From Escherichia coli (lineage in GTDB: Bacteria > Pseudomonadota > Gammaproteobacteria > Enterobacterales > Enterobacteriaceae), in NCBI RefSeq assembly GCF_030013595.1, contig NZ_CP122768.1: a stretch of 64,000 nt of DNA; one strand, 5' to 3'. Shown here piece after piece: positions 9,108 through 23,087 of the stretch (positions are counted from its first letter, which is position 1; every line of letters starts with the position of its first letter). The notes under the pieces are model-generated. The model was not told the DNA's origin and ran no database searches. It was given only the letters and a program-made list of their open reading frames with translations. The position numbers and the translations under genes are program-made.

Positions 9108-10679
9108 TTACTGAGAGCTCAGATCAACTTTCCAGGGCAACAGATCGCGTACCCGGTTTGCCGGCCAGTCCTGGATATGTTCAATGACGTAACGCAGCCA
9201 CTTTTCTGGCTCCACATTGTTCAGACGGCATGTGCCGATCAGCGAGTACAACACCGCCGCATGTTCACCACCGCTGTCGGAACCCGCGAACATCCAGTTT
9301 TTCCGGCCTACGGCCACTCCCCGTAAGGCGTTCTCTGCGATGTTGTTGTCGATTTCCACCCAGCCATTACTGCAGTACACGTTCAGTGCATCCCACTGTT
9401 TCAGCAGGTATGCGAACGCTTTTGCCGTATCTGAGTGACGCGACAGTGTTTTCATCTGTTGCTGTATCCAGTCATACAGTGACTGCATCAGTGGCGCGGC
9501 TCTGGCTTTTCTTGCCGCCAGACGCTGTTCTGCTGAACAGCCCCGGACCTCTGCCTCGATGGCATACAGTTCACCGATACGCTGCAGGGCTTCCGTGGTG
9601 ATGTAGGTGGGCGCTCTTGCATGCACATCGTGGATTTTTCTCCGGGCATGAGCCATACACGCGGCTTCCGTTATTCTGCCGGATTCGTATAACGCCCGGT
9701 AACCACCGTAAGCATCGGCCTGAAGCACACCGCTGTAACCGGCCAGGTGATTTTGTGGATGGATACCTTTCCGGTCCGGACTGTACGCGAACCAGACCGC
9801 CGGGGGCATCTGTGAACCGGCGTTACGGTCATCACGGACGTAGACCCACAGCCGGGCTGTCCGGGTTTTACCGCTGCCCGGCTCCTGGACCGGGACGGGG
9901 ATATCATCAGCATGGACTTTACCGGGCATCAGCACATACTGGCGCAGGACGTCATACAGCGGCTCCAGCAGTTCAGCAACAGCACCTGTCCAGCGCCCCA
10001 GTGTGGCACGGCTCAGCTCCACTCCCTGACGACGGTATATTTCTGACTGGCGGTATAACGGCAGATGGTCTGCATATTTCCCGGTGACAACATGGGCCAG
10101 AAGCCCCGCTCCGGCATAACTGCGTGCAATGGGTTTTGAAGGTACTGGTGCCTGTACGATATGGTCGCACCGGCAACAGGCCTGTTTCGGACGTTGTGTT
10201 TCGATAACCTTAAAGGCGCTGCTGATAAGCTCCAGTTGCTCTGACACATCACATCCCAGAGAACTGAGTTCACCACCACAGGCAGGACAGCATTCCTCTT
10301 CCGGCCGGATAACCCGGGTTTCACGGGGAAGTGAGGCCGGTAACGGTTTACGGGCTGAAGACTGGCGCAGGGCGGATGGCAGTACCGGGTCATATTGCTC
10401 ACCCAGCGTTTCCGCCATTTCTTCCTGAAGTGCGCTGATTCGCTCCTGTGCTTCCTGTATCTGCCGTTCGGTTTTTGCACGAAGTTTTTCTGAGCTTTTA
10501 CCGAACTGCATACGTTGCAGTTTCGCAACCAGCGCCTTCAGCCGGTTGATTTCGGAAGCATAAGCCGCCACCCGCTGTGAGAGCAGGCGGTTGTATTCAG
10601 CCATCTGGCGGATGGTGTCCTGTTGCGTCTGCAACAGTGCCCGCAGGCGGGCGTTCTCATGAGCAAGTGAGGTGTCCAT
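9108..10679 (-). CDS. tnpC: IS66-family transposase TnpC (orf3)
   Basis: 523-aa protein with an N-terminal coiled coil, a Cys-rich zinc-finger region (CPACGG...CCRCD) and a DDE-type core. Confidence 0.85.
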
Positions 10680-10698
10680 ATCCTCACTTTACAACGGG

Positions 10699-11046
10699 TT
10701 ATATGCGGATTCCAGCGCGTTCCGTTCGTTTCGGGTGCTTCCAGTTGATACCTTCAAGAAGCATGGATAACTGAGCCGGAGTAAGGTGCACCTTGCCGTC
10801 ACGGGTGACTGGCCAGACGAAGCGGCCCCGCTCCAGGCGTTTGGTGAAGAGGCACAGTCCGTCACTGTCAGCCCACAACACTTTTATCTGGTCACCCCGG
10901 CGTCCGCGGAAGATGAACAGGTGTCCGGAGAACGGGTCATCCTTCAGGACGTTCTGAACTTTTGATGCCAGGCCGTTAAAGCCATTTCGCATATCGGTGA
11001 TACCTGCAACCAGCCAGATACGCGAACCTGCAGGGAGAGATATCAT
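10699..11046 (-). CDS. tnpB: IS66-family accessory protein TnpB (orf2)
   Basis: 115-aa protein (MISLPAGSRIWLVAGITDMRNGFNGL...) typical of IS66 Orf2. Confidence 0.8.
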   Translation of the reverse strand: MISLPAGSRIWLVAGITDMRNGFNGLASKVQNVLKDDPFSGHLFIFRGRRGDQIKVLWADSDGLCLFTKRLERGRFVWPVTRDGKVHLTPAQLSMLLEGINWKHPKRTERAGIRI

Positions 11047-11720
11047 CAGTGGCTGCTCCCTTTTATTTCGCGGATAAGTGTCTGTAATAACGCCGGCGTC
11101 AGTTTACCTTTAAGCCTGAGAGTTCCGGCCGGCAGAACCAGCTCACAACACAGACTGTCGGACGGTGTATTTATCTGCTCTGGTTCCTGTGCGGGGGCCG
11201 GGATTTTATTATCCGGCTCCGGCGTTAACGTCACGGGAAGCAGTGCCGGCATATTTTTTCCGGAAGGCAGCAGGCCACCTTTCCGGTATTGATGGCGCCA
11301 GTTGAAGAGCAGGTTATCGTTGATTCCGTTTTCCCGGGCGATCTGCGCCACACAGGCTCCGGGCTGCAGTGACTGCTCCACTAAGGCGATTTTAAACTCA
11401 TAAGGGAAGTTGGGCCGCCGGGGACGTTTTTTTACCACGGGGGCTTCGGATATAACGGTGCTTTCAGGACGTACGACTGGTACCGTGGAAAATTGTCCGT
11501 AAAGGCAGGCATCAAGTTCCTGCTCCGACATGCCTGCGGGCAAAGGCCACGAAAGGCCAGCTCTCCGAAAGCGCACGAACATACTACAAACTGTTGATTT
11601 TGGTACACCCAGGCGACGCCCGGCCACAACCCGGGGTAAATGTTCTTCAAAGTGAAGACGTAAAGCTTCAGTGATCCAGGTCCGGTGTTTCATACGATAG
11701 TGTCCATTAAAAATGGACAT
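11046..11720 (-). CDS. tnpA: IS66-family TnpA (orf1) with an N-terminal extension
   Basis: Helix-turn-helix region FPYEFKIALVEQSLQPGACVAQIARENGINDNLLFNWRHQY. The stop overlaps the tnpB start. Which Met is the true start is unresolved. Confidence 0.65.
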   Translation of the reverse strand: MSIFNGHYRMKHRTWITEALRLHFEEHLPRVVAGRRLGVPKSTVCSMFVRFRRAGLSWPLPAGMSEQELDACLYGQFSTVPVVRPESTVISEAPVVKKRPRRPNFPYEFKIALVEQSLQPGACVAQIARENGINDNLLFNWRHQYRKGGLLPSGKNMPALLPVTLTPEPDNKIPAPAQEPEQINTPSDSLCCELVLPAGTLRLKGKLTPALLQTLIREIKGSSH

Positions 11721-11772
11721 TATTTTTGTAGAGCCGGAGGAAACAGACCAGACGGTTTAAATGAGCCGGTTA

Positions 11773-12237
11773 CTATTCAGCTTCATAAAGCTTTTTGAAC
11801 ATGGGGCTTTGATCCCAGGCGATCCCTTTGTAACGCTTCATATTTTTCCGCAATTCATCCTTTGAAAGATTCATAAAACGGATTTTTAATTTTTCATCGG
11901 TTTCAGTGTTGTAAACCAAATGTTCCATCCCACGCCAGGAGGACTCCAGTTTCTGAAATTCCGGATGACTCAGGATTAGTTTGATCTGCTCAGTTAATTT
12001 GAAATCGATCTGCTCAATAATCGCAGCAATACTTTTATAAGCGTCGTCACTGACGGTGACGGTATTTGTCAAAGCCTGTTGGGCCAGCGTCTGAACTGCT
12101 GCCTCAACAGCCTTTGCTGCCTGAGGTGTCTTGGGACGGAAGGCTTTATCCAGGAGCGAATCAAATTCAGTGTCCTGATAGGCAGTGGTTTGCGCAGCAG
12201 AGAGTTCGCCAGTCGCCAGAAGAGTATCGTTTACCAT
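11773..12237 (-). pseudogene. tssC: T6SS sheath large subunit TssC, truncated to the N-terminal 154 codons by the IS66 element
   Basis: Contains the conserved FQKLESSWRG block of the TssC/VipB N-terminus. The reading frame ends in a TAG formed at the IS junction, and the remaining ~350 codons are absent. Confidence 0.8.
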
Positions 12238-12261
12238 GAAAGTTCCTTAATAAAATCGCAG

Positions 12262-12807
12262 TTAGTCTGCTGTTCCCGTTTCACCTGATAAGACACTTTC
12301 CTGTTGAGCGACAGGTTTTGGCGCACTAGCCAGAGCTTTCAGTAACGTAGGGTCTTGTAATAGTTTGTTGATAAGATTTTCTGCTCCCGCTTTACCATCC
12401 ATGTAGGTTTGTAGGTTGGCAAGCTGAGTACGCGCTTCCAGCAGCTGGTTCAGGGCATCCACCTTACGGGCAATCTGCGCAGGCGAAAAATCGTCCATAT
12501 TCTCTAACGTGATATCGACCATTAACTGCCCTTCGCCCGTCAGCGTATTGGGGACAGCAAACGCCACGCGCGGCGCAATGGCTTTCATCCTCTCGTTGAA
12601 GTTATCGATATCAATATCAAGGAATTTACGATCGGTGACCGGCGGCAGCTCTTCACGCGGTTTACCCGCCAGGTCGGCCAGCACCGCCATGACAAACGGC
12701 AGTTCGATTTTTTTCTCGGAGCCGTAAATCTCAACGTCATACTCAATCTGCACGCGGGGCGCGCGGTTGCGGGCAATAAACTTCTGCGCGCTGTTGTTGA
12801 TAGCCAT
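12262..12807 (-). CDS. tssB: T6SS sheath small subunit TssB (VipA)
   Basis: 181-aa protein with the TssB signature IEYDVEIYGSEKKIELPFVMAVLADLAG. Confidence 0.85.
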   Translation of the reverse strand: MAINNSAQKFIARNRAPRVQIEYDVEIYGSEKKIELPFVMAVLADLAGKPREELPPVTDRKFLDIDIDNFNERMKAIAPRVAFAVPNTLTGEGQLMVDITLENMDDFSPAQIARKVDALNQLLEARTQLANLQTYMDGKAGAENLINKLLQDPTLLKALASAPKPVAQQESVLSGETGTAD

Positions 12808-12868
12808 AATCCTTCATTTCCTTATCAGTCAGCCGACGACCACCTGGGGAGTGGCCCGACGGTACAGT

Positions 12869-13159
12869 TTAAAAATCATACGCAGAGAGTATTTTTATAA
12901 TCTCTTTGTTTTCTTTGTACTTTTCCCGAAGCACAGGGAGTGATTTCTTCGCCGGAGGACACCAGGTATCAACCCCCTTTTCGATGTCTCTTTTATCCTT
13001 CTCTGGTAAAGAACTGTCCCATTCACCAGCAAGATGCTGGCACATTTCCGCATTACTCAGAAAATGCTGTACATCCTGTGGTAAAGACGGTTCCCCCTGA
13101 ACACTGAAAGCGAACATCATTAACAGGAATGTCCACAACACCGGATAACGAAATGTCAT
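12869..13159 (-). CDS. Small secreted protein; putative immunity protein for the adjacent peptidase-like gene
   Basis: 96-aa ORF with a predicted Sec signal peptide (MTFRYPVLWTFLLMMFAFSVQG), two Cys residues, and a start 3 nt after the upstream gene's stop. Confidence 0.5.
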   Translation of the reverse strand: MTFRYPVLWTFLLMMFAFSVQGEPSLPQDVQHFLSNAEMCQHLAGEWDSSLPEKDKRDIEKGVDTWCPPAKKSLPVLREKYKENKEIIKILSAYDF

Positions 13160-13161
13160 AC

Positions 13162-13725
13162 TTAATGTCCATCAATTGACCAGTGGGGTATATCTGTATT
13201 TCCGCCTACAAATTTTCTGACGCCGTAACCCAGACCTACCGCCTGAAGCTGGGCATTCATTCCGGTTCGATGTAGTGTATTAATTGCAACATTCTGACCA
13301 TTGCTCCCCGCAATTGTTAATGTTCCGCTCCAACTGATATTCATATCTATCGCAGTACCGCGTGTATGGTTGGAGCTCAGTGCAGGCGCGACATTCAGAT
13401 TATTCATACCATAGGCCGTAACCATAGCCTGCGCCGCTTCAAGCGAGGCTTGCTCAGTCGGGTGAACCCACTCAATATCCACCCCCTCCATCGCCGGGAC
13501 GTTTTTTGCCTGAACGATTTCCTGAGCAATCAACCATGACCAGTGCATGAGATATGCTCTGGCGGGAGGGCGATATGTTGCAGAGATACTGACCCTTGCA
13601 CGCGCATTACCAAGCGCGCGCAAAAAATTATCTACCGATGCACGAAAAGTCCCCTGCAAATCATTAGTGGAAGAACTTCCAGGAAAGCGACTGACCCACA
13701 GTGCGCCACTTAATTCTTTTGCCAT
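13162..13725 (-). CDS. Putative LAS/M15-type zinc metallopeptidase; candidate T6SS peptidoglycan-hydrolase effector
   Basis: 187-aa protein without a signal peptide. It carries an exact SxHxxGxAxD motif (SNHTRGTAID) and C-terminal His residues (IPHWSIDGH). It lies between clpV and tssB. Confidence 0.5.
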   Translation of the reverse strand: MAKELSGALWVSRFPGSSSTNDLQGTFRASVDNFLRALGNARARVSISATYRPPARAYLMHWSWLIAQEIVQAKNVPAMEGVDIEWVHPTEQASLEAAQAMVTAYGMNNLNVAPALSSNHTRGTAIDMNISWSGTLTIAGSNGQNVAINTLHRTGMNAQLQAVGLGYGVRKFVGGNTDIPHWSIDGH

Positions 13726-13737
13726 AAGGATGCTCCA

Positions 13738-16371
13738 TTAATCCGTTTCAAAAATAATCTGTTCATCCTCATCAACACGAATGCGGATTTGCGTGATGGC
13801 CGTTTTCTCTGTCATCGCCTGCAACCAATAACGGGACAGTTGTGGGAGGATATGTTGTTCGATATAGCCGATGAGCAAACGAGCGCCGGTCTCGTGCATC
13901 GGGCAGCGCGACACAATATGCGTAATCAGTTCATCGCCATACACCAGTGAAACGCCATGCCGCTCCGCCATCCGATCCATCAATCTGCCAAGATGCAGGC
14001 GGGCAATAACACCACGCGCGGTCTCATCCAGCGGTAAATAAGGAATAACCGTCACACGCCCCAGGAAAGCCGCCGGGAAGTGTTTACGTAACTCCGGCAT
14101 TAACGCCTCTTTTAACCCTGCCGAATCGGGCATCAGCGCCGGATCTTCACAGAGCTGGCTGATAAGTTCCGCCCCCGCGTTAGTAGTCAACAACAGCGTG
14201 GTATTTTTGAAATCGATGTGGACACCTTCGCCATCTTCCATCGCCCCCTTATCAAACACCTGGAAGAACAGCTCGTGGACGTCGTGATGGGCTTTTTCAA
14301 TTTCATCTAGCAATACCACGCTCCAGGGATGGCGGCGTACCGCTTCCGTCAACACACCGCCTTCGCCATAGCCGACGTAGCCGGGCGGCGCGCCTTTCAG
14401 AGTGGAGACTGTGTGAGACTCCTGATACTCGCTCATGTTGATGGTGATCAGATTCTGTTCACCGCCATAGATTGCTTCTGCCAGTGCCAGCGCGGTCTCA
14501 GTCTTGCCTACTCCGGACGGCCCGGCCAGCAAAAAGACACCCACAGGCTTACGCGGGTCACCTAAACCCGCCCGCGCGGTCTGGATACGCTCGCCAATCT
14601 GCGCCAACGCATCCATCTGCCCGGTAACACGCTGCGCCAAACGGGTGGGCAATTCCAGTATCTGACTGGCTTCATCTTTCACCATCCGTCCGGCGGGAAT
14701 ACCGGTCCAGTCGGAGACAATCTCTGCCACCACGGTTGCACTGACTTCCGGGTACACGACAGGGTTTTCACCCTGCCAGCCTCTTAATGCCGTTTCTGCC
14801 TGTTGTAGAGTGATTTCGTCGCGCTCGCCAGGCGCTGCGCCGCGTTGCTCCTGTAAACTGCGAACCAACTCCAGTTCCTGCTGCCACCGCGCTTCGGTGT
14901 CAGAAAGATCGGCATTAAGCGATATAATCCGCGCCGTCAGTACATCGCCCCGCTCCGAGCGGATACCCATTTTTTCCTGCTTTAATAACAACTCCTGCTC
15001 CAGTTCGGCAGCGTTGAGCTGCTGGCGCAGATACTGGACTCTCGCAGGCGGGGTATGCAGCGACAGCGCTACACGGGCCGCCGCCGTATCCAACAGGCTG
15101 ATGGCCTTATCCGGTAGTTGCCGGGCCGGAATGTAACGGTGAGAAAGCTGTACGGCGGCGCGCACGGCCTCATCAAGAATCAGGACATCATGGTGTTCTT
15201 CAAGCGTGGTGACTAATCCGCGCACCATCTCAACAGCCGCAACCTCTTCCGGCTCAGCAACCTGCAATACCTGAAAACGCCGGGTCAGCGCCGGATCCTT
15301 TTCGATATGGCGTTTGTACTCGCTCCAGGTGGTTGCGCCGATGGTGCGCAGAGTGCCACGCGCCAGCGCCGGTTTCAGCAAGTTGGCAGCATCCCCCGTA
15401 CCGGATGTACCACCAGCGCCCACCAGGGTGTGAACTTCATCAACAAAAAGTATCACCGGCTGCGCCGAGCGCGCGGCCTCTTCCAGCAAAGCTTTCAGGC
15501 GGGATTCAAATTCACCCTTCATGGACGCCCCAGCCAGCAGCGCTCCAACATCCAGTGACAGCAACCGCACGTTACGCAGTGAAGGCGGCACTTCCCCCCC
15601 GGCAATCGCCAGCGCGAATCCTTCCACCACTGCCGTTTTCCCGACCCCCGCCTCGCCGGTCAGCAGCGGGTTGTTCTGGCGACGGCGCAGCAGAATATCC
15701 GTCATAGTACGGATCTCGTGTTCGCGGCCGGTGACCGGATCGATATTGCCTTCACGGGCCAGCGCAGTCATGTCCTGGCAGTATTTCGCCAGCGCGGATT
15801 TACTTCCGGTTGATTCGCCGGCAAAGACCTGGCTAGCTTCCCCCGGTACTGCAGAATTTAAATCCGAGCCGTCATAAGGCATTTCTGTTAATTCAGGAGA
15901 TGAAGTGATTAAAGACGGAAGAATATCTAATAGTTCATCTACCGGTAGCTCTGCCAATGGCGCACAAATATTTTTTAACACCCGACACAATTCTGGCGTG
16001 GTTAACCAGGCAAGTAATAACCATCCACTACGAATTTTTTGATCGCCAAAGCGGATACTTGCCAACATCCAGGCTTTTTCAACAGAAAGATCGATATGAT
16101 GGGAAAAATCGTTAATTACACTCGCTCCGGCAGGCAATATATTCAATTGCTGAATTAACGCCTTCTCAACATCAGCAGATGTTATTTGATAATGTCGAAG
16201 CACATTGTGAATGTCATTCTCTGGTTGTTGTATTAACTGATGCAACCAATGCGTCAGTTCGACATAAGGATTAGCGCGTAATTTACAGAACGTCGTCGCA
16301 GATTCCAAAGATCTAAACAAAGATTTGGTTAGCTTTCCATACAGTGCACTGCGCGAAACAGGAGTGTCCAT
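13738..16371 (-). CDS. clpV: T6SS AAA+ ATPase ClpV (TssH)
   Basis: 877-aa protein with two AAA+ modules (Walker A GEAGVGKT and GPSGVGKT) and a ClpV-type N-domain. Confidence 0.9.
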   Translation of the reverse strand: MDTPVSRSALYGKLTKSLFRSLESATTFCKLRANPYVELTHWLHQLIQQPENDIHNVLRHYQITSADVEKALIQQLNILPAGASVINDFSHHIDLSVEKAWMLASIRFGDQKIRSGWLLLAWLTTPELCRVLKNICAPLAELPVDELLDILPSLITSSPELTEMPYDGSDLNSAVPGEASQVFAGESTGSKSALAKYCQDMTALAREGNIDPVTGREHEIRTMTDILLRRRQNNPLLTGEAGVGKTAVVEGFALAIAGGEVPPSLRNVRLLSLDVGALLAGASMKGEFESRLKALLEEAARSAQPVILFVDEVHTLVGAGGTSGTGDAANLLKPALARGTLRTIGATTWSEYKRHIEKDPALTRRFQVLQVAEPEEVAAVEMVRGLVTTLEEHHDVLILDEAVRAAVQLSHRYIPARQLPDKAISLLDTAAARVALSLHTPPARVQYLRQQLNAAELEQELLLKQEKMGIRSERGDVLTARIISLNADLSDTEARWQQELELVRSLQEQRGAAPGERDEITLQQAETALRGWQGENPVVYPEVSATVVAEIVSDWTGIPAGRMVKDEASQILELPTRLAQRVTGQMDALAQIGERIQTARAGLGDPRKPVGVFLLAGPSGVGKTETALALAEAIYGGEQNLITINMSEYQESHTVSTLKGAPPGYVGYGEGGVLTEAVRRHPWSVVLLDEIEKAHHDVHELFFQVFDKGAMEDGEGVHIDFKNTTLLLTTNAGAELISQLCEDPALMPDSAGLKEALMPELRKHFPAAFLGRVTVIPYLPLDETARGVIARLHLGRLMDRMAERHGVSLVYGDELITHIVSRCPMHETGARLLIGYIEQHILPQLSRYWLQAMTEKTAITQIRIRVDEDEQIIFETD

Positions 16372-16703
16372 CTGTTACACCTAATGATGTAAGAACATAT
16401 AAATGATACATAAACATAACTGTACCGATTAAAACTTCTAATTAATAGAATTATCAAAAAGGCCGAATGAAACAATGATGCATATCACAGAACACAATGT
16501 AATATAGCAGGTAGTATCTTTTTCATGGTGATATTCAATAGAGCAAGCCAATTTCATACATACCATGAATATATTAAATTGAAAATCGCCACTATATATT
16601 TCCGCGAAAACTTATATTGATAAAGTAAATTGATCAGCATTGCTTATCTAAAAATTTAGAAAACTTATTCTTTTGAAAGAAACATTCTACACAGTGATAC
16701 ACA
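16372..16703. promoter_or_regulatory. AT-rich divergent intergenic region between clpV and the FHA gene (probable divergent promoters)
   Basis: About 330 bp of strongly AT-rich sequence between two divergently oriented T6SS operons. Confidence 0.5.
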
Positions 16704-17624
16704 ATGAAACCAAATATTACGTGGGGACTCCAAAAAATACAGGCGCACGGGATCGCCGATAACACAATTTACGCGACTGAAGGAACCCAAATTATCTTCA
16801 CCGTTACCTCCCCCTGGATTCCTGTTTTTGAGGTGAATGATGATGTAAAGATTGCCCTCAGTCTGACCCGCCACGAAGAAGCATGGTGGATTATCAATCA
16901 GTCTACCGAATATTGCTGTACGGTAAACGACCAGATTGTGGAACCTCATCACCGTATGCGTCTGAATGAAGGCGACCTGATAGAATGGGGGTTATCTTCA
17001 TGGTGCCTTGTGCACGGCAATCCATCATCTCCGGACCTGAGCGCAGTAAAAACGACATCGCAGACTGCCACCATGTCGGAAACAATAACCGAATATCTGG
17101 ATCTGGATTGGTTCAGGCAGCAGCATCTGACATCACAAAATCCATTCGATATCATTCCTGTTCATGGAGCCTCCTCCACTGGAGAAGATGCTAAAAAAGA
17201 AAATGCCCTGACTCGACTTTATCAGGAATACCGCGAGGCGTTGTTATCTCCTGAACAAGATCTTCATCGCCATGCTGATCCTTTTCCCTTTAACGAAGAG
17301 CCCTCCTCACAGGATCTGGATTCATTGCGTGATCTGGTCACTGAAGCCGAGACATTGCAGGATATGGTCACTGGCGGGTTAAGCATTGACGCTATTCTCG
17401 ATGTCCTGGACGCCACCGGCGAAGGGGAAACCGCCTGGCCTGCCGAAAAGACGCCCCCAGATATCCTGCACCTGCTATCCCCGGAATGCGCACCGGAAAC
17501 AGCGCATAACACCGTTCTGCCCGACCTGACACGCAAAGAGCATCGCATCATTGGCATTGACATTGACAGCCATTATCGGATAAACCCGGCACAACACGGA
17601 GAGATATCTCATGACAAACAATAA
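16704..17624 (+). CDS. tagH: T6SS-associated FHA-domain protein (TagH/Fha-like), short form
   Basis: N-terminal FHA-like domain and an acidic C-terminal half. First gene of the + strand T6SS operon. Confidence 0.65.
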   Translation: MKPNITWGLQKIQAHGIADNTIYATEGTQIIFTVTSPWIPVFEVNDDVKIALSLTRHEEAWWIINQSTEYCCTVNDQIVEPHHRMRLNEGDLIEWGLSSWCLVHGNPSSPDLSAVKTTSQTATMSETITEYLDLDWFRQQHLTSQNPFDIIPVHGASSTGEDAKKENALTRLYQEYREALLSPEQDLHRHADPFPFNEEPSSQDLDSLRDLVTEAETLQDMVTGGLSIDAILDVLDATGEGETAWPAEKTPPDILHLLSPECAPETAHNTVLPDLTRKEHRIIGIDIDSHYRINPAQHGEISHDKQ

Positions 17625-18441
17625 CGAGCTACCGGCTACCCTGTCGGCGCTGCTGCGGGATTATTCCGTGGCGGAGGGCATTCAAATGGCAGAACAGCAG
17701 GTCAGGATGCACCCGGCGCAGGCCTCCCGCCGCCACAGCCTATTTCAGTTATTGTGCGTGGCAGGCTACTGGTCGCGGGCACTGCAACAGATCCAGCTAT
17801 GCGCCCGGATGGACGCAAATTATACCCGCGAAGCGCAGGTATTTGGCGAGCTGATACGCTGTGAGATATACCGCCACGCCTGCTTTCAGGGAGAACAGCG
17901 GCCCGATTTTATTCTCCCGCCGCCCGCCTGGATGGAGGATCTGCTGACCGCCCTCGCCTGTAACGCTCGTGGTGAAGCGCAGGAAGCTGACGCCCACCGC
18001 AGCCGCGCACTTGAGGCCATAACAGATACTGCAGGGCAGTGGAATGGTGGCGCATTTGACTGGATTAGCGACAGCGACTCCCGTACCGGTCCGGTACTCG
18101 AACTCATCGCGGGCGGAGTATATATCTGGCTGCCGTTTTCACAAATCTGTTCGCTAAAATCGCCGCGGCCTGCGCATCTGACCGATTTGATCTGGAAACC
18201 CGTCAACGTCACACTGAATAATGGCGACACACACAGTGCCTGGCTGTTTTCCCGCTACAGCGGCTCTGAAAAGGCTGCCGACTCCCTGCGTCTGTGCCGG
18301 GAAACGGTCTGGCAGGACGGGCCGGGAGAGACTCTGGTACAGGCGCTGGGTCAGAGGGTGTGGCTCACCGGTCACGGCGATATCAGCCTGCTGGATTTGT
18401 CCACCTGTACCTTTAACACCGCTGAAGGAAGCGACGCGTGA
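17611..18441 (+). CDS. tagJ: T6SS accessory protein TagJ (ImpE family)
   Basis: 276-aa protein of ImpE-like size, translationally coupled between the FHA gene and tssE. Confidence 0.6.
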   Translation: MTNNNELPATLSALLRDYSVAEGIQMAEQQVRMHPAQASRRHSLFQLLCVAGYWSRALQQIQLCARMDANYTREAQVFGELIRCEIYRHACFQGEQRPDFILPPPAWMEDLLTALACNARGEAQEADAHRSRALEAITDTAGQWNGGAFDWISDSDSRTGPVLELIAGGVYIWLPFSQICSLKSPRPAHLTDLIWKPVNVTLNNGDTHSAWLFSRYSGSEKAADSLRLCRETVWQDGPGETLVQALGQRVWLTGHGDISLLDLSTCTFNTAEGSDA

Positions 18442-18932
18442 GCGCTTCCCGCCAGCGTCCGGGCAATCACCTGCTGCCCACGCTGTTTGACCGCCTGTGT
18501 GATGATGCCCCAAACCAGAAACGCGACCACGATATCAGCGTCAGCCCGGTTCAGCTTAAGGAGATCATTCGCCGGGATTTGTCATTTCTGCTCAACACCG
18601 TCAGCCATGAAGATGATATTGATGCTGCACGTTATCCGGACGCGGCAGCGTCCGTACTGAACTACGGCCTGCCGCCACTGGCGGGCAGCTTTCTGTATGA
18701 ACACAAGTGGGACGATATTCGCAGGGCCATTTTGCGTACCATCATCCGGTTTGAACCCCGGCTGAAAGCGTCCACCCTGCAAATCATCCCACTTCAGGAT
18801 GAGCGCCACCAGAGCGGCCATAACACATTACAGTTTGAAATTCGCGGCGAGATCCTCACGCAGCCCTACCCGATGGCATTCCGGGTACGCAGCGCGCTGG
18901 ATATGGAACAGAGCCGCATTACGTTTTTTTAA
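18438..18932 (+). CDS. tssE: T6SS baseplate protein TssE (gp25-like)
   Basis: 164-aa protein. Its start overlaps the tagJ stop and it immediately precedes tssF. Confidence 0.8.
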   Translation: MSASRQRPGNHLLPTLFDRLCDDAPNQKRDHDISVSPVQLKEIIRRDLSFLLNTVSHEDDIDAARYPDAAASVLNYGLPPLAGSFLYEHKWDDIRRAILRTIIRFEPRLKASTLQIIPLQDERHQSGHNTLQFEIRGEILTQPYPMAFRVRSALDMEQSRITFF

Positions 18933-18947
18933 TTCAGAGAGAAACCG

Positions 18948-20830
18948 ATGGATCCACGGCTACTGGAATACTACAACCGCGAACTGAGCTATCTGCGGGA
19001 AACGGGAGCCGAATTTGCCGCCCGTCATCCTAAAGTCGCCGCCCGACTGGGTATGCAGGGAACGGATATTGCCGATCCGTATGTGGAGCGAATGGTCGAG
19101 GCCTTCAGCTTCCTGACCGCCCGCACGCAGCTAAAAATTGACGCTGAATTCCCCCGTTTCACCCAGCGTCTGCTGGAAGTGGTCAGCCCCAATTACGTCA
19201 CACCCACGCCCTCAATGAGCGTGGCGCAGCTTCATCCCAATCCGGAAGAAGGCGATCTGGCGAAGGGATTCACCGTCCCGCGCAACACGGCCTTTTTTTC
19301 CGCCATTCCGGAAGGCGAAAGTACCGCCTGCCAGTTTCGTAGCAGCCAGAATGTGACGCTGTGGCCGCTTGCCATCGAAGAGGTGCGGCTGACCGCCGCG
19401 CCGCCGGATATGCCTGCCCTGCACCGCTACCTGCCAGCCAACATTCACGTCGCTGGTGCGCTGCGTATTACCCTGCGCACCTTTGGTGAACTGACGTTCA
19501 GTCAGCTTGCAGGGCTGAACAAGCTGCCATTTTATCTCTGCGGCGAGGAGCGCACGGCCTCACACCTGTTCGAACTACTGCATACCAGCGCCATCGCGAG
19601 CCTGGCTGGCATTCCGGGGCATTTTGACGGCGCACTGGATGTGAATCTGAAACAGCCCGTTATGTACGAAGGCCTGGATCCGGATCAGGGACTGTTGCCG
19701 CTGGCGTGGAATGTGTTTCACGGCCATAACCTGCTACATGAATATTTTACCTGTCCGGAACGCTTCTTTTTTTCACCCCGACAGGCCTGTCTGCCGGGTT
19801 ACAGAAAATTAACGGCGGCGTGGCGGAGATTGTTATCCTGCTGAACCGCCTGCCGCCGGACTGGCTGATCCACCAGACAAACGCGGCACAGTTCAGCCTG
19901 TTCTGTACCCCGGTTATCAACCTGTTTCCCCGCGTCGCCGCCCGGATCGATGTCACGCACAGCACGACGGAACAGCATCTGGTGGTGGACAGAACCCATC
20001 CGCTGGATTATGAGGTGTTCTCGGTCCAGGAAGTGGAAGGGCTGGAAACTGACACCACACGGAAGATGGCCTTTCGCCCGCTCTACCACACCCGCAATAA
20101 TGATGAAGGCAATCACGGACGTTATTTTTCCCTGCGCCGGGAGCCGCGCCGGTTGTCGGAAAATGCCCGCCGCTATGGCACCCGCACCTCCTATACAGGA
20201 TCAGAAGTGTTCCTGTCGCTGGTTGACCAGTATGAAGCGCCGTACCCGGAAAATCTGCGCCATATCACCATCACGGCTATGGTCACCAACCGCGATCTGC
20301 CCTGTCTTATTGCCCGCAATGGACGGGACGATCTGACCGTGGATGCGGCCATCCCGGTGGCGGGCGTGGGGCTTATCCGTCCGCCGCGTCCGCCGCAGCC
20401 TCCGCTGGCTGAACGTGAAATGGCCTGGCGGTTGATCCGCCAGTTATCCTTTAACTATCTGCCGCTGGCCGATCTGGATCACCGTACCGGTGGTCAGGCG
20501 CTGCGCGATCTGCTTAACCTGTTTATTCCGGCGCATGACAGTCCGCAGTCGCGCCAGGTGCGCAGCCTGATTGGCTGCAACACCACCCCGGTCACCCGCC
20601 GTCTGCCCGGTTCCGGGCTGCTGGTCTATGGGCGCGGCGTCAGTTGTGAACTGACCGTGGATGAGGAGGGGTTCTCCGGTATCAGTCCGTATCTGTTCGG
20701 TCTGGTGTTGGAGCACTATATCGCCCGTCATGTTTCCATTAATACCTTCTCGCAGATGACGCTGCACAGCATGCAGCGCGGCAAAATTATGACCTGGCCT
20801 GCCAGGGCGGGACAGCGGGGAAGCGTATGA
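18948..20830 (+). pseudogene. tssF: T6SS baseplate protein TssF, interrupted by a frameshift in a T7 homopolymer
   Basis: Two overlapping ORFs (18948-19844 and 19820-20830) together give a TssF-sized protein of about 620 aa. The frame changes inside the T-run at 19767-19773. Confidence 0.75.
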
Positions 20831-21822
20831 GCGACGATTTCACTCAGGCGCAGGAAACCCCCTGGCGTTACGGTTTTCTGAACCTGATGCGCCGCGTGGA
20901 TGTGCAGTTGTGTACTGTTCCGGCAGGCAACACCTGGCAACCACGGATGGAAAAATTTCGCCTCGGACAAACTCCCGCGCTGACCTTTGCGCCACGGGAA
21001 ATCGCCAGTGTGAGCTGGCAGGAAGAGCGGCTGCACATCAGTTTGTACAGTCTCGGGCTGTGGGAGCCGAACGGTCCACTGCCGCTGCACTACACCGAAC
21101 TGGCGCGCAACCGGACTGAAAGCCGAAGAGACCCGACGCTAACCCGTTTTTCTGATCTTTTTCATCACCGCTGGCTGACGCAGTTTTACCAGGCATGGCG
21201 CAGCGCCCAGTCCGCTGGGGGCGGTCTGGATAAACCACAACATGACCGTTTTGCCTTTTATATCGCCAGCCTCAGCGGGCAGGATTTGCGGGAGAGCGCC
21301 GACAGCCCGTTGCCGGATCACGCTCGCCTGGCGGCATCGGCCCATCTGGTGCGTGAGTCCCGCAATCCGGACGGTCTGGCCACCACGCTGGCGCACTATT
21401 TCGGTGTACCTTTCCGGATACAGGAGTATGTCCTGCACTGGATAGCCGTGGCGGACGATGAGATCACCCGGCTGGGGATGCCAGCCCCCTCTTCCGTTAT
21501 TGGCAACGGTGCACTCATCGGCCAGGCCGTGCCGGACATGCAGTATAAGTTCCGGCTGGTTATCGGCCCGCTGACGCTGGAGGATTACCGACGTTTTCTG
21601 CCTGGCGGCAATAACCTGCCAGTCCTGACAGAACTGGTCCGCGCCTTTAGCGGTTTTGAATACTGCTGGGAAATTGAGCTACAGCTAAAGCCCCACGCCG
21701 CCCCTCCGGCTGTTACCGGTGGTTCGTACCAACTGGGCTGGACCGCATGGGCGGGTAAAGCCATGCACGAAAACCCGGTGACGGGCATGATTTTCGAACC
21801 AGAACACTACCTGGCGCACTGA
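20827..21822 (+). CDS. tssG: T6SS baseplate protein TssG
   Basis: 331-aa protein whose start overlaps the tssF stop (ATGA), in the conserved tssE-F-G order. Confidence 0.8.
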   Translation: MSDDFTQAQETPWRYGFLNLMRRVDVQLCTVPAGNTWQPRMEKFRLGQTPALTFAPREIASVSWQEERLHISLYSLGLWEPNGPLPLHYTELARNRTESRRDPTLTRFSDLFHHRWLTQFYQAWRSAQSAGGGLDKPQHDRFAFYIASLSGQDLRESADSPLPDHARLAASAHLVRESRNPDGLATTLAHYFGVPFRIQEYVLHWIAVADDEITRLGMPAPSSVIGNGALIGQAVPDMQYKFRLVIGPLTLEDYRRFLPGGNNLPVLTELVRAFSGFEYCWEIELQLKPHAAPPAVTGGSYQLGWTAWAGKAMHENPVTGMIFEPEHYLAH

Positions 21823-21832
21823 GGATAATTTA

Positions 21833-22879
21833 ATGGATACATCCCTGTCTGACCCAATTTCGGCAGAATGCCCCTGCGGCCCGGATCTGGAGTACGATCC
21901 GGAATACCTGCTACTGTTCACGCGCGCCGCACCGCGTGAAGAAGCGCAATACGGCGATTTTGTCAGTACGCCGGAAACCATTAACTGGGCGGAGCTTGAG
22001 CGGGATGCCTGCCGACTGCTGACGCGCAGCAAAGATATCCGCATTCTGGTTGTCCTGCTGCGCTGCCGTATCCAGCAGGCCGGTGCCAGGGGACTGGCGG
22101 AGGCGCTCGCGCTGCTGGAAACGTTGTGCGCCACGTACCCGAACGCCATCCATCCTCAACTGCTCGCGACTGAAGATATCACCGCCGAAGAGGCGGCAGT
22201 GGCACGTAGTAACGCCCTGGCGGCGTTGCTGGACCATGAAGGCGTAATAGCGGATATTCGTGGCATTACACTGTCAAACAATGCTGCCATACGCCTTCAG
22301 GTACGGGATGTGGAGCGTTCGCTGTCTGCATCACGCCCGGCGGATGCGCTGGCACCAGAATCGGTACGCCAGCAACTGGCCGACCTGGAGGCGCGCGGCA
22401 CACTGCCGCTGGATGCCTTTCGCCAGGCCGCAGAGACCACTGAGCGGCTGCAACGCCATGCGCGTGAAACGCTGAATGACCAGGCACCGAACCTATCCCG
22501 TCTGACACAATTGCTGGCCCTGTTGCCGGGAGCGATACGGACCACCACGCCGGAGATCCTGCCACAACCAGTGGCTGAACAGCCGGAGAGCACCACCATC
22601 GTTCATACTGAACAGATATCATCAGAGCAGATTGCGCTACCGGTGCATATCGCGGAGGAAATATCACCGATGTCCGGCGCAGACCCCCGGCAGATCCGCG
22701 ACCGGAACGACGCGCTGGAACGCCTGCGTGTCATCCGTCGCTGGTTTGAGCACAGCGAACCGAGCAGCCCGACCATTCCTTTGCTGCGCCAGGCAGAACG
22801 CCTGGTCGGAAAACGCTTCTCGGAGGTAATAAATGAAATTCCAGTAGAACTGCTGGAAAAATGGGATGCGCTGGAGTAA
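21833..22879 (+). CDS. tssA: ImpA N-domain protein (TssA family, short form)
   Basis: N-terminus MDTSLSDPISAECPCGPDLEYDPEY resembles the ImpA_N domain. At 348 aa it is shorter than canonical TssA. Confidence 0.65.
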   Translation: MDTSLSDPISAECPCGPDLEYDPEYLLLFTRAAPREEAQYGDFVSTPETINWAELERDACRLLTRSKDIRILVVLLRCRIQQAGARGLAEALALLETLCATYPNAIHPQLLATEDITAEEAAVARSNALAALLDHEGVIADIRGITLSNNAAIRLQVRDVERSLSASRPADALAPESVRQQLADLEARGTLPLDAFRQAAETTERLQRHARETLNDQAPNLSRLTQLLALLPGAIRTTTPEILPQPVAEQPESTTIVHTEQISSEQIALPVHIAEEISPMSGADPRQIRDRNDALERLRVIRRWFEHSEPSSPTIPLLRQAERLVGKRFSEVINEIPVELLEKWDALE

Positions 22880-23010: not shown

Positions 23011-23087
23011 TGGCGGAACGGACGGGACTCGAACCCGCGACCCCCTGCGTGACAGGCAGGTATTCTAACCGACTGAACTACCGCTCC
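23011..23087 (-). tRNA. aspV: tRNA-Asp (GUC)
   Basis: The reverse complement reads GGAGCGGTAGTTCAGTCGGTTAGAATACCTGCCTGTCACGCAGGGGGTCGCGGGTTCGAGTCCCGTCCGTTCCGCCA. Confidence 0.95.

What the first reader, a model, noticed from the sequence alone, without database searches (positions are those of the whole stretch)
16704..22879. Accessory composition of the + strand T6SS operon: short FHA protein, TagJ/ImpE and a short TssA-like protein
The operon FHA-tagJ-tssE-tssF-tssG-tssA is tightly coupled, with overlapping stop and start codons. It includes a TagJ/ImpE-family gene (an accessory sheath-binding protein described for a Pseudomonas T6SS) and an FHA protein, yet I see no PpkA/PppA kinase-phosphatase pair in the window. 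The TssA-like protein is only 348 aa with an ImpA_N-type N-terminus, shorter than canonical TssA. These features could help assign the cluster to a T6SS subtype and indicate a post-translational control module that has lost its kinase.
Basis: partly seen in the sequence, partly recalled or inferred. Interest (0 to 1): 0.3.

Follow-up and report, generated by a model that had tools for sequence, protein, structure and literature searches.

The report
Decayed SPI-6-type T6SS half-cluster
The operon is the well-known tagK-tagJ-tssE-tssF-tssG-tssA half of a Salmonella SPI-6-like type VI secretion island at tRNA-Asp in an E. coli chromosome. Its "odd" accessory genes are the normal set for that subtype, and in this genome the island is a dead remnant, cut by an insertion sequence and frameshifted in tssF.

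Summary
Three corrections apply.

2. **The accessory set is normal for the subtype.** TagJ plus a 38.6 kDa short TssA, with no PpkA/PppA, is the published signature of group-3 (P. aeruginosa H1 / Salmonella SPI-6 type) T6SSs. Distant TagK-domain relatives keep the order tagF-tagK-tagJ-tssEFG-short tssA with no kinase called on the contigs read (only one spans most of a cluster). "Lost its kinase" is therefore not supported.

   - tssF is split by a 1-nt deletion (T8 to T7, 19767-19773).
   - tagK carries a 6-bp duplication inside its most conserved motif.
   - An ISCro1 element truncates tssC at codon 154.
   - About 24 kb of the island is gone (tssC 3' end, tae4/tai4, hcp, tssJKLM, tagF, vgrG, rhs).

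This is an ordinary, already annotated system. Two small extras: the T7 frameshift recurs on several haplotypes, and TagK appears uncharacterised experimentally.

The parts
16704..17624 (+). tagK (306 aa, 34.4 kDa): N-terminal FHA-fold domain (about residues 1-106), a poorly modelled (possibly flexible) linker, and a C-terminal TagK domain (about 166-290)
17555..17566 (+). 6-bp tandem duplication (CATTGA x2) that inserts Ile-Asp into the family signature E-H-x-x-x-[S/G]-x-D-S of TagK
   Evidence: It appears as a gap against intact E. coli MEI003. The two inserted residues are absent from 78 of 78 other family members, while the flanking H280 and S289 are invariant in 79/79. The duplication is shared by the whole remnant lineage: the exact 306-aa protein is indexed in 105 blocks of public assemblies.
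17611..18441 (+). tagJ (276 aa, 30.6 kDa), ImpE family
   Evidence: Pfam ImpE E = 6.9e-41. HsiE1 (PDB 4UQX) E = 1.6e-48 over residues 12-269. The TssB-binding residues W171, P181 and E/D273 of HsiE1 align to W, P and D (with PMC4239648).
18438..18932 (+). tssE (164 aa), gp25-like baseplate wedge
   Evidence: Pfam GPW_gp25 E = 7e-21; TIGR03357 68 bits.
18948..20830 (+). tssF, frameshifted into two ORFs (18948-19844 and 19820-20830)
   Evidence: The two ORFs match TssF profile positions 1-268 and 286-608. Intact relatives encode a single 627-aa TssF.
19767..19773 (+). T7 homopolymer, the site of the -1 frameshift (T8 in intact relatives)
   Evidence: The alignment gap is. All 111 complete E. coli genomes that carry this stretch span 112 bases against the window's 111. 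Assemblies L004 and L007 are identical to the window over 17-18 kb except for this base. T7 also occurs in six other read-set assemblies on different haplotypes, two of them with an otherwise intact sequenced portion of the cluster. The T8 run arose from a Tyr-to-Phe codon change, RFYFF to RFFFF.
20827..21822 (+). tssG (331 aa)
   Evidence: Pfam T6SS_TssG E = 6e-92; TIGR03347 327 bits.
21833..22879 (+). short-form tssA (348 aa, 38.6 kDa)
   Evidence: Pfam ImpA_N E = 3.4e-30. TIGR03363 (353-position short-TssA model) is matched end to end at 146 bits, below its 160.85 cutoff. The long-form model TIGR03362 is matched only at its N-terminus. Mass.
16372..16703 (.). divergent intergenic region between tssH and tagK, 28% G+C
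   Evidence: No strong sigma-70 consensus was found by the simple scan.
13738..16371 (-). tssH/clpV (877 aa)
   Evidence: TIGR03345 1219 bits. The N-domain matches P. aeruginosa ClpV1 N-domain (4UQW, 136 bits).
12869..13725 (-). two conserved hypothetical genes (96 aa and 187 aa) between tssB and tssH
   Evidence: No Pfam or NCBIfam hit. Present in all related clusters.
12262..12807 (-). tssB (181 aa) with the TagJ-binding N-terminus
   Evidence: TIGR03358 190 bits. The best PDB match is HsiB1 at 259 bits, against 46 bits or less for other typed TssB/VipA chains; one unidentified sheath subunit (9n4v_B) lies between at 122 bits. Residues 8-20, QKFIARNRAPRVQ, are identical to the HsiB1 peptide crystallised with HsiE1.
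11773..12237 (-). tssC remnant (codons 1-154 of 504)
   Evidence: TIGR03355 positions 3-132 of 473. Homology to the intact cluster starts at 11774. The N-terminus reads EFDSLL, like HsiC1 EFASLL, with no LLDEII motif (PMC4239648).
9078..11773 (-). ISCro1 (IS66 family; tnpA, tnpB, tnpC) that truncates tssC and is joined on its left to the yafV-side flank without a target duplication
   Evidence: NCBIfam IS66 TnpA and transposase hits. Annotated as ISCro1 in relatives. The right junction is the same as in strain PK-F-10122, where the 8-bp duplication TATTCAGC flanks the element. In the window the left flank is unrelated, which indicates a deletion. Terminal repeats GTAAGCG/GTAACCG.
23011..23087 (-). 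tRNA-Asp (aspV), the integration site of the island
   Evidence: ARAGORN; annotated in relatives. SPI-6 of Salmonella is also adjacent to aspV (PMC2907695).

Best explanation
The + strand operon tagK-tagJ-tssE-tssF-tssG-tssA is one arm of a Salmonella SPI-6-like type VI secretion island of the P. aeruginosa H1-T6SS class (phylogenetic group 3). It is inserted at tRNA-Asp (aspV) of an E. coli-type chromosome.

In intact relatives the arm encodes four things:
- The baseplate wedge (TssE, TssF, TssG).
- A short-form TssA.
- The 30-kDa partner of short TssA, TagJ. By homology, TagJ binds the N-terminus of TssB and, together with ClpV, governs sheath stabilisation and recycling.
- TagK, an FHA-fold protein with a C-terminal TagK domain.

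This accessory set, including the absence of PpkA/PppA, is the normal composition of this cluster type. I infer that TagK is a phosphorylation-independent scaffold that stands in the place of Fha1 and is probably controlled by TagF. This step is inference only.

In this genome the system is a non-functional relic, for three reasons:
- ISCro1 inserted in tssC. A deletion to the yafV side then removed the tssC 3' end, tae4/tai4, hcp, tssJ, tssK, tssL, tssM, tagF, vgrG and rhs.
- tssF carries a -1 frameshift in a T8 run.
- tagK carries a two-codon duplication inside its signature motif.
For: **Identity and context**
- The region is 99.7% identical to annotated E. coli clusters with the same gene names, next to aspV-dnaQ.
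- TagK homologues in Salmonella are 55-57% identical.
- SPI-6 lies at aspV.
- STM0270 (TagJ), STM0272 (ClpV), STM0273 (TssB) and STM0274 (TssC) show the same layout.

**Class assignment**
- TagJ matches HsiE1, E = 1.6e-48.
- TssB matches HsiB1 at 259 bits, against 46 bits or less for other typed TssB/VipA chains.
- The ClpV N-domain matches ClpV1.
- TssB residues K9, F10, A12, R18, Q20, Y23 and V25 are conserved. TssC reads EFDSLL, not LLDEII. TagJ keeps the W/P/D interface residues.
- The pairing of short TssA with TagJ in group 3 is published.

**Kinase-less state is native**
- No kinase or phosphatase is annotated in the whole 36-kb reference island.
- None is called on the contigs of distant TagK clusters that were read. 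Three of them show tagF-tagK-tagJ-tssE and more; the fourth begins at a divergent upstream gene and shows tagK-tagJ-tssE.

**TagK**
- NF033418 at 547 bits; TIGR03354 not hit.
- No conserved GR or SxxH columns in 79 family members.

**Decay**
-.
Against: - The T7 run could still be an assembly error in the source genome. The closest T8 assemblies are otherwise identical.
- Only 64 kb is visible. A second T6SS elsewhere in the genome could in principle use ClpV, TssB, TssE, TssG, TssA or TagJ from this remnant.
- The group-3 assignment rests on best matches to solved structures and published motifs, not on a formal phylogeny with typed reference clusters.
- TagK's role, its independence from phosphothreonine, and its link to TagF are inferred from fold, conservation pattern and synteny. 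No experiment on this family was found in the library.
- The remaining genes are nearly identical to those of intact clusters, so sequence alone cannot show that they are unexpressed.
Confidence: 0.85

Rival explanations
1. One reading: an Fha-PpkA-PppA threonine-phosphorylation control module that has lost its kinase and phosphatase, leaving an orphan, shortened FHA protein.
For: [quoted passage not shown] No kinase or phosphatase is in the window. One distant TagK-domain protein shows a weak, sub-threshold similarity to TagH (TIGR03354, 30.7 bits against a 120 cutoff), so a very old common origin with Fha is possible.
Against: The protein is a full-length member of a separate family, TagK (547 bits), and does not hit TIGR03354. 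The intact E. coli island has no kinase. Four contigs of distant TagK-domain relatives (about 20% identity) keep tagK-tagJ-tssE, three of them preceded by tagF, with no kinase called on them. The Arg of GR and the Ser/His of SxxH are not conserved anywhere in the family. Kinase-less T6SSs with FHA proteins are already known, for example V. cholerae TagH (PMC10482370).
Confidence: 0.07
2. The tssF frameshift is a sequencing or assembly error, and the operon is intact in the real organism. The remnant may be expressed and may supply parts to another T6SS in the cell.
For: The difference is one base in a homopolymer, the commonest error type. Two assemblies (L004, L007) are identical to the window over 17-18 kb apart from it. 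All 111 complete genomes carrying this stretch have T8. The other genes of the operon are essentially identical to those of intact clusters.
Against: The same T7 allele, giving the same 298-aa and 336-aa products, is assembled from six independent read sets on different haplotypes (5-57 mismatches to the window). The tract therefore does slip in nature. Even with tssF repaired, the cluster lacks eight components and has the tagK duplication. Cross-use of parts between T6SS subtypes is unlikely given the co-evolved TssB-TagJ-ClpV contacts (PMC4239648).
Confidence: 0.3
3. The T-run in tssF is a functional on/off switch. This would work either by phase variation through slipped-strand mispairing, or by rescue of the T7 allele through transcriptional slippage, as described for the poly-A tract of Citrobacter rodentium tssM.
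For: T7 recurs on several haplotypes, including two contigs whose sequenced portion of the cluster is otherwise intact. A precedent exists for transcriptional frameshifting that restores an interrupted T6SS gene (PMC4256274).
Against: The T8 run is not conserved. The 93%-identical E. coli variant and distant relatives read RFYFF with the run broken by an A, so it is a recent accident of one codon change. Runs of 7-8 T are at the low end for efficient RNA-polymerase slippage (general knowledge). T8 is the state in 111 of 111 complete genomes. In this window the rest of the machine is missing anyway.
Confidence: 0.05

Closest known systems
Salmonella enterica SPI-6 T6SS (sci genes; STM0266-STM0274 region)
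   Same: Both are inserted next to tRNA-Asp aspV. Both have tagK-tagJ-tssE-tssF-tssG-tssA divergent from clpV-tssB-tssC. TagK is 55-57% identical. Tae4/Tai4, long-form TssL and TagF are present in intact E. coli versions.
   Different: This is an E. coli chromosome. The cluster type is rare there: 126-170 of 5426 complete genomes. In this window only the aspV-proximal third survives.
Pseudomonas aeruginosa H1-T6SS (group 3): TagJ/HsiE1, HsiB1, ClpV1 and short TssA1
   Same: TagJ, TssB and the ClpV N-domain have their best solved-structure matches in H1 proteins. The TagJ-binding N-terminus of TssB is identical over 13 residues. TssC lacks LLDEII. Short TssA goes with TagJ. The block tagJ-tssE-tssF-tssG is shared.
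   Different: H1 has Fha1 with PpkA, PppA and TagQRST. This cluster type has TagK and TagF only, with no kinase or phosphatase.
Fha1/TagH of the threonine-phosphorylation pathway (TIGR03354)
   Same: Both have an N-terminal FHA fold followed by a poorly modelled region and a conserved C-terminal part. Both are encoded in a T6SS cluster that also has TagF, which in P. aeruginosa and Agrobacterium represses through Fha (PMC10482370).
   Different: There is no significant match to TIGR03354. Pfam FHA is below threshold. The GR and SxxH motifs are not conserved. The C-terminal domain is different (NF033419). No cognate kinase is present.
IS- and frameshift-driven T6SS decay in Shigella sonnei and E. 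coli ST131/ST410
   Same: Core genes are inactivated by insertion sequences, indels and deletions (PMC10924462; PMC10711316). A near-identical strain (HCP5S3_I2) shows a different set of IS hits in the same island.
   Different: Those reports concern the EDL933-like T6SS-2 and the T6SS-1 clusters, not this SPI-6-like type.
Citrobacter rodentium tssM poly-A frameshift rescued by transcriptional slippage
   Same: A homopolymer inside a T6SS core gene puts the gene out of frame (PMC4256274).
   Different: That tract is longer, and the rescue was shown experimentally. Here the run is 7 T, it is not conserved, and no rescue was tested.

Membership tests
TagJ / ImpE family (PF07024; HsiE1) | Match to the ImpE profile above the gathering score, and full-length similarity to HsiE1 | tested here: met
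   139.6 bits against a cutoff of 25. 4UQX E = 1.6e-48 over residues 12-269.
TagJ / ImpE family (PF07024; HsiE1) | TssB-binding pocket residues: W171, P181, a large hydrophobic residue at 154, and E/D273 of HsiE1 | tested here: met
   They align to W, P, L and D in the HMMER alignment. The residue list is from PMC4239648. The numbering offset was inferred from the W-to-P spacing.
H1-T6SS / SPI-6 class (group 3, T6SS i3) | TssB N-terminus conserved for TagJ binding (K9, F10, A12, R18, Q20, Y23, V25) | tested here: met
   The window TssB reads MAINNSAQKFIARNRAPRVQIEYDVEI. All listed residues are present, with L27 replaced by I.
H1-T6SS / SPI-6 class (group 3, T6SS i3) | TssC N-terminal helix lacks the LLDEII ClpV-binding motif | tested here: met
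   The tssC remnant reads ...TEFDSLLDKA..., compared with HsiC1 EFASLL.
H1-T6SS / SPI-6 class (group 3, T6SS i3) | Placement of TssB/TssC/ClpV within the group-3 clade in a phylogeny with typed reference clusters | not tested
   Only a proxy was run: the best solved-structure matches are HsiB1 (259 bits against 46 or less for other typed chains), ClpV1-N and HsiE1. No reference set of typed clusters was available.
Short-form TssA (TssAS) | ImpA_N N-terminal domain, about 40 kDa, and no TagA partner in the cluster | tested here: met
   ImpA_N at 105 bits. 348 aa, 38.6 kDa. No second ImpA_N/TagA gene in the intact reference island. Definition from PMC7896307.
Short-form TssA (TssAS) | Score above the curated cutoff of the NCBIfam short-TssA equivalog TIGR03363 | tested here: inconclusive
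   146.4 bits against a cutoff of 160.85, although positions 6-338 of the 353-position model are matched. PGAP names relatives either 'TssA' or 'ImpA family T6SS protein'.
TagK (NCBIfam NF033418) | Full-length match above the equivalog cutoff | tested here: met
   547.2 bits against a cutoff of 200, covering positions 1-305 of 305.
TagK (NCBIfam NF033418) | Intact C-terminal signature E-H-x-x-x-[S/G]-x-D-S | tested here: not met
   The window protein has Ile-Asp inserted between the invariant His and the Asp-Ser pair. It is unique among 79 aligned members.
TagH / Fha1 (TIGR03354) of the PpkA-PppA pathway | Match to the T6SS FHA-protein model | tested here: not met
   No hit at E <= 0.001.
TagH / Fha1 (TIGR03354) of the PpkA-PppA pathway | FHA fold | tested here: met
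TagH / Fha1 (TIGR03354) of the PpkA-PppA pathway | Phosphothreonine-binding residues (Arg of GR, Ser and His of SxxH, Asn of the S-x-N-G loop) | tested here: inconclusive
   No conserved GR or SxxH columns appear in the 79-member alignment. The position corresponding to the Asn is E/D/T. This was judged from sequence only. Model coordinates could not be superposed.
TagH / Fha1 (TIGR03354) of the PpkA-PppA pathway | Cognate Hanks-type kinase PpkA and PP2C phosphatase PppA in the cluster | tested here: not met
   Absent from the window, from the intact reference island, and from the contigs of distant TagK clusters that were read. The rest of the genome could not be searched.
Functional T6SS (13 core components) | Complete set tssA-tssM, hcp and vgrG, all intact | tested here: not met
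   tssC is truncated at codon 154. hcp, tssJ, tssK, tssL, tssM and vgrG are absent from the locus. tssF is frameshifted.

The most novel reading that the evidence does not exclude
TagK is the phosphorylation-independent counterpart of Fha1. It would be an FHA-fold adaptor with a degenerate phosphothreonine site, gated directly by TagF, that works with TagJ and short TssA at the baseplate. The tagF-tagK-tagJ-tssEFG-tssA module conserved down to about 20% identity would then define a kinase-free post-translational control route for group-3-like T6SSs. A minor second element: the T8 run created by a Tyr-to-Phe change in tssF would be a recurrent natural off-switch for this island.
Probability: 0.3. 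Interest if true: 0.4.

Novelty: already known. Interest (0 to 1): 0.13.

Why it matters
It matters little for T6SS biology in general. The gene set is the standard one of a described subtype and is annotated by name in public genomes.

- **Annotation.** This locus should be recorded as a T6SS pseudo-cluster. tssF and tssC are pseudogenes, and tagK is probably impaired. It should not be recorded as a working system with unusual regulation.
- **Population genomics.** The locus adds one more example of IS- and homopolymer-driven T6SS decay in E. coli. Independent decay routes occur in near-identical strains.
- **Open question.** TagK is a named family, widespread with TagF and TagJ, with an FHA fold. 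No experimental work on it was found in the library searched.

Tried and rejected
- **Sequence searches of TagK against solved structures.** A single-sequence search and a 20-member profile search gave nothing useful. Only fold comparison worked.
- **First AlphaFold run.** A shallow alignment gave a poor C-terminal half. A 79-member alignment improved the N-domain, but the TagK domain stayed at pLDDT 45-80. No fold claim is made for it.
- **AlphaFold-database fold library.** It was unavailable.
- **Literature search for 'TagK'.** It mostly returned an unrelated Xanthomonas AraC regulator and an ad hoc 'tagK1' in Kosakonia. Nothing on SciF/STM0271 function was found.
- **Simple promoter scan.** It found no convincing sigma-70 site in the 28% G+C divergent region.
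- **Polarised N/S counts, run to detect relaxed selection.** They were uninformative for the operon, with only 3 window-branch changes. They instead revealed a probable recombination tract in tssH.
- **Shigella origin.** I considered it because of the IS load of some relatives. The backbone is 100.0% identical to E. coli pig isolates, and the organism label was not resolved further.
- **Mapping onto the E. coli T6SS-1/-2/-3 scheme.** This could not be settled from the papers held.

Full report
**Observation**

The six genes are present on the + strand at the coordinates given. Pfam and NCBIfam confirm most assignments:
- TagJ/ImpE, E = 6.9e-41.
- TssE, E = 7e-21.
- TssG, E = 6e-92.
- An ImpA_N protein of 348 aa, E = 3.4e-30.

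Three of the five junctions overlap (14, 4 and 4 nt). Two have gaps of 15 and 10 nt.

Two points differ from the description. First, the Pfam FHA match of the first gene is below threshold (19.6 bits against 20.7). The protein is instead a full-length member of NCBIfam TagK (NF033418, 547 bits). Second, tssF is not one gene. It is split into 18948-19844 and 19820-20830, which match the two halves of the TssF profile.

**Where the window comes from and what the cluster is**

The region is 99.3-99.7% identical to annotated E. coli chromosomes. There the genes are named tagK, tagJ, tssE, tssF, tssG and tssA or 'ImpA family' protein, and they lie next to tRNA-Asp and dnaQ.

The intact island in strain MEI003 runs from aspV to yafV, about 36 kb. 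Its gene order is tssA-tssG-tssF-tssE-tagJ-tagK, then divergently tssH, two hypothetical genes, tssB, tssC, tae4, tai4, hcp, tssJ, tssK, tssL (long form), a tlde1-domain gene, tssM, tagF, vgrG, rhs and ISAs1.

This type is rare in E. coli. It occurs in 126-170 of 5426 complete genomes, even with the sensitive DNA search.

TagK homologues are found in Escherichia, Citrobacter, Enterobacter and Salmonella; the Salmonella ones are 55-57% identical. Salmonella SPI-6 also sits at aspV (PMC2907695). SPI-6 has TagJ = STM0270, ClpV = STM0272, TssB = STM0273 and TssC = STM0274 (PMC4239648). That leaves STM0271 in the TagK position.

**Subtype**

The best solved-structure matches are all P. aeruginosa H1-T6SS proteins:
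- TagJ to HsiE1, 168 bits over the full length.
- TssB to HsiB1, 259 bits. One unidentified sheath subunit scores 122 bits, and other typed TssB/VipA chains score 46 bits or less.
- The ClpV N-domain to ClpV1-N, 136 bits.
- TssG resembles the EAEC protein only weakly, at 50 bits.

The co-evolving features that Forster et al. used to define the TagJ class are all present:
- TssB residues 8-20 (QKFIARNRAPRVQ) are identical to the HsiB1 peptide crystallised with HsiE1. K9, F10, A12, R18, Q20, Y23 and V25 are all kept.
- The surviving TssC N-terminus reads EFDSLL, like HsiC1 EFASLL, not LLDEII.
- TagJ keeps the W, P and acidic residues of the binding pocket.

This points to the H1/SPI-6 class (group 3). 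The assignment rests on best matches and motifs, not on a formal tree.

**The short TssA**

The protein is 348 aa, or 38.6 kDa. It matches the short-TssA model TIGR03363 from end to end, although below the curated cutoff. It matches the long-form model only at its N-terminus.

Bernal et al. (PMC7896307) describe two TssA forms. The long form (55-60 kDa, groups 1-2) pairs with TagA. The short form (about 40 kDa, groups 3-5) pairs with a 30-kDa partner such as TagJ in the H1-T6SS. Here TagJ is 30.6 kDa.

**The FHA protein**

At the level of family it is not Fha1/TagH:
- TIGR03354 is not hit.
- No solved FHA domain is found by sequence.
- In a 79-member alignment the structural core (C-x-V-N, L-x-x-G-D-x-I-E-x-G) is conserved. 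The Arg of GR and the Ser/His of SxxH, which bind phosphothreonine in canonical FHA domains, have no conserved counterparts. This last point is an inference from sequence.

An exhaustive profile search finds 186 family representatives, typically 300-450 aa with both domains. Ten of them were scanned. All ten hit the TagK-domain model NF033419 above its cutoff, and none hit Pfam FHA.

Five contexts were read and four were informative. Three of them show tagF-tagK-tagJ-tssE. Two of those three continue through tssF, tssG and a short tssA of 355-383 aa. The fourth starts at a divergent upstream gene and shows tagK-tagJ-tssE-tssF. No kinase or phosphatase is called on any of these contigs, although only one of them spans most of a cluster.

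Kinase-less T6SSs with FHA proteins are already known (V. cholerae TagH), and TagF acts through Fha in P. aeruginosa and Agrobacterium (PMC10482370). The most economical reading is that TagK is a phosphorylation-independent, TagF-linked scaffold. That is inference. I found no experimental paper on this family.

**No kinase in the window**

ORFs in 1-16400 were scanned directly against NCBIfam and Pfam. The stretch 23000-64000 was read from the annotation of matching relatives. It holds dnaQ, rnhA, gloB, mltD, rrnH, metNIQ, proS, dnaE, the lpx genes and bamA. No kinase or phosphatase appears. The rest of the genome could not be searched.

**The system is broken here**

1. *tssC is truncated and most of the island is deleted.* Homology to the intact island begins only at 11774. 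To the left lies ISCro1 (IS66 family, 9078-11773), then a symE-like gene and yafV. tssC keeps 154 of 504 codons. In strain PK-F-10122 the same element sits at the same site, flanked by the 8-bp duplication TATTCAGC. In the window only the right copy is present and the left flank is unrelated. This indicates an IS-mediated deletion of about 24 kb. Many E. coli strains carry an ISCro1 next to yafV, so recombination between two copies is a plausible route.

2. *tssF has a 1-nt deletion, T8 to T7, at 19767-19773*.
   - All 111 complete genomes with this stretch span 112 bases against the window's 111.
   - Two assemblies are identical to the window over 17-18 kb except for this base.
   - The same T7 allele is nevertheless assembled from six other read sets on different haplotypes. 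In two of them the sequenced portion of the cluster is otherwise intact. The tract therefore slips recurrently in nature.
   - The run was created by a Tyr-to-Phe codon change. Relatives read RFYFF with the run interrupted.

3. *tagK carries a tandem CATTGA duplication.* It inserts Ile-Asp between the invariant His and the Asp-Ser of the family signature. This is unique among 79 members. It is shared by the whole remnant lineage: the exact protein is indexed in 105 blocks of assemblies, and all eight contexts shown carry the truncated cluster.

4. *A near-identical strain decayed differently.* Strain HCP5S3_I2 is 100.0% identical to the window over 40500-64000. It kept the island but has IS elements in tagK and next to tssH, and a stop codon in hcp.

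Apart from these lesions the operon is almost identical to intact copies, so the decay is recent.

**Verdict**

The finding is real but ordinary. The accessory composition is the textbook set of an H1/SPI-6-class T6SS. The 'lost kinase' idea is not supported. The more important fact, that the locus is a pseudo-cluster, was missed.

Two things remain of some interest. TagK is an uncharacterised FHA-fold family tightly linked to TagF and TagJ. The homopolymer in tssF is a small recurrent frameshift hot spot.

Noticed in passing
window 9078-11773 and 11774-11781; L002 14001-16708: ISCro1 is inserted at exactly the same tssC site (8-bp target TATTCAGC) in the window and in E. coli PK-F-10122. The two clusters are only about 93-95% identical and lie in different chromosomal contexts. 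This suggests either a target-site preference or transfer of the insertion by recombination.
   Followed up: partly
window 19767-19773; L018-L025: The T8-to-T7 frameshift in tssF recurs in six independent read-set assemblies on different haplotypes. In two of them the sequenced portion of the cluster is otherwise intact. The T8 run itself stems from a Tyr-to-Phe codon change (RFYFF to RFFFF) specific to this E. coli sub-lineage.
   Followed up: yes
window 13738-16371 (tssH): Against the intact reference MEI003, tssH carries 14 non-synonymous and 48 synonymous window-branch codon changes. The whole + strand operon carries about 3. This looks like a recombination tract within clpV.
   Followed up: no
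window 20613-20706: ARAGORN calls a 94-nt 'tRNA-His' inside the tssF coding region. It is most likely a false positive.
   Followed up: no
L013, L014, L015 and a JGI contig: Distant TagK-domain genes (about 20% identity, 300-440 aa) keep the order tagK-tagJ-tssE. Three of the four contigs have tagF immediately upstream, and two continue through tssF, tssG and a short tssA. The module is conserved and no kinase is called on these contigs.
   Followed up: partly
L011 (E. coli HCP5S3_I2, 100.0% identical to window 40500-64000): The same island shows a different decay pattern. ISCro1 plus an IS3-family element lie inside tagK, another IS3 element abuts tssH, and hcp has an internal stop. tssC and tssJKL are retained.
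   Followed up: partly
window 8540-8773 and 2-976: A SymE-family toxin gene lies between yafV and the IS left end. The window starts inside an FHIPEP (lfhA/FlhA-like) gene, which is annotated as partial in the reference strain MEI003.
   Followed up: no
window 12869-13725 (- strand): Two small genes (96 and 187 aa) lie between tssB and tssH. They are conserved in all related clusters and have no Pfam or NCBIfam family.
   Followed up: no
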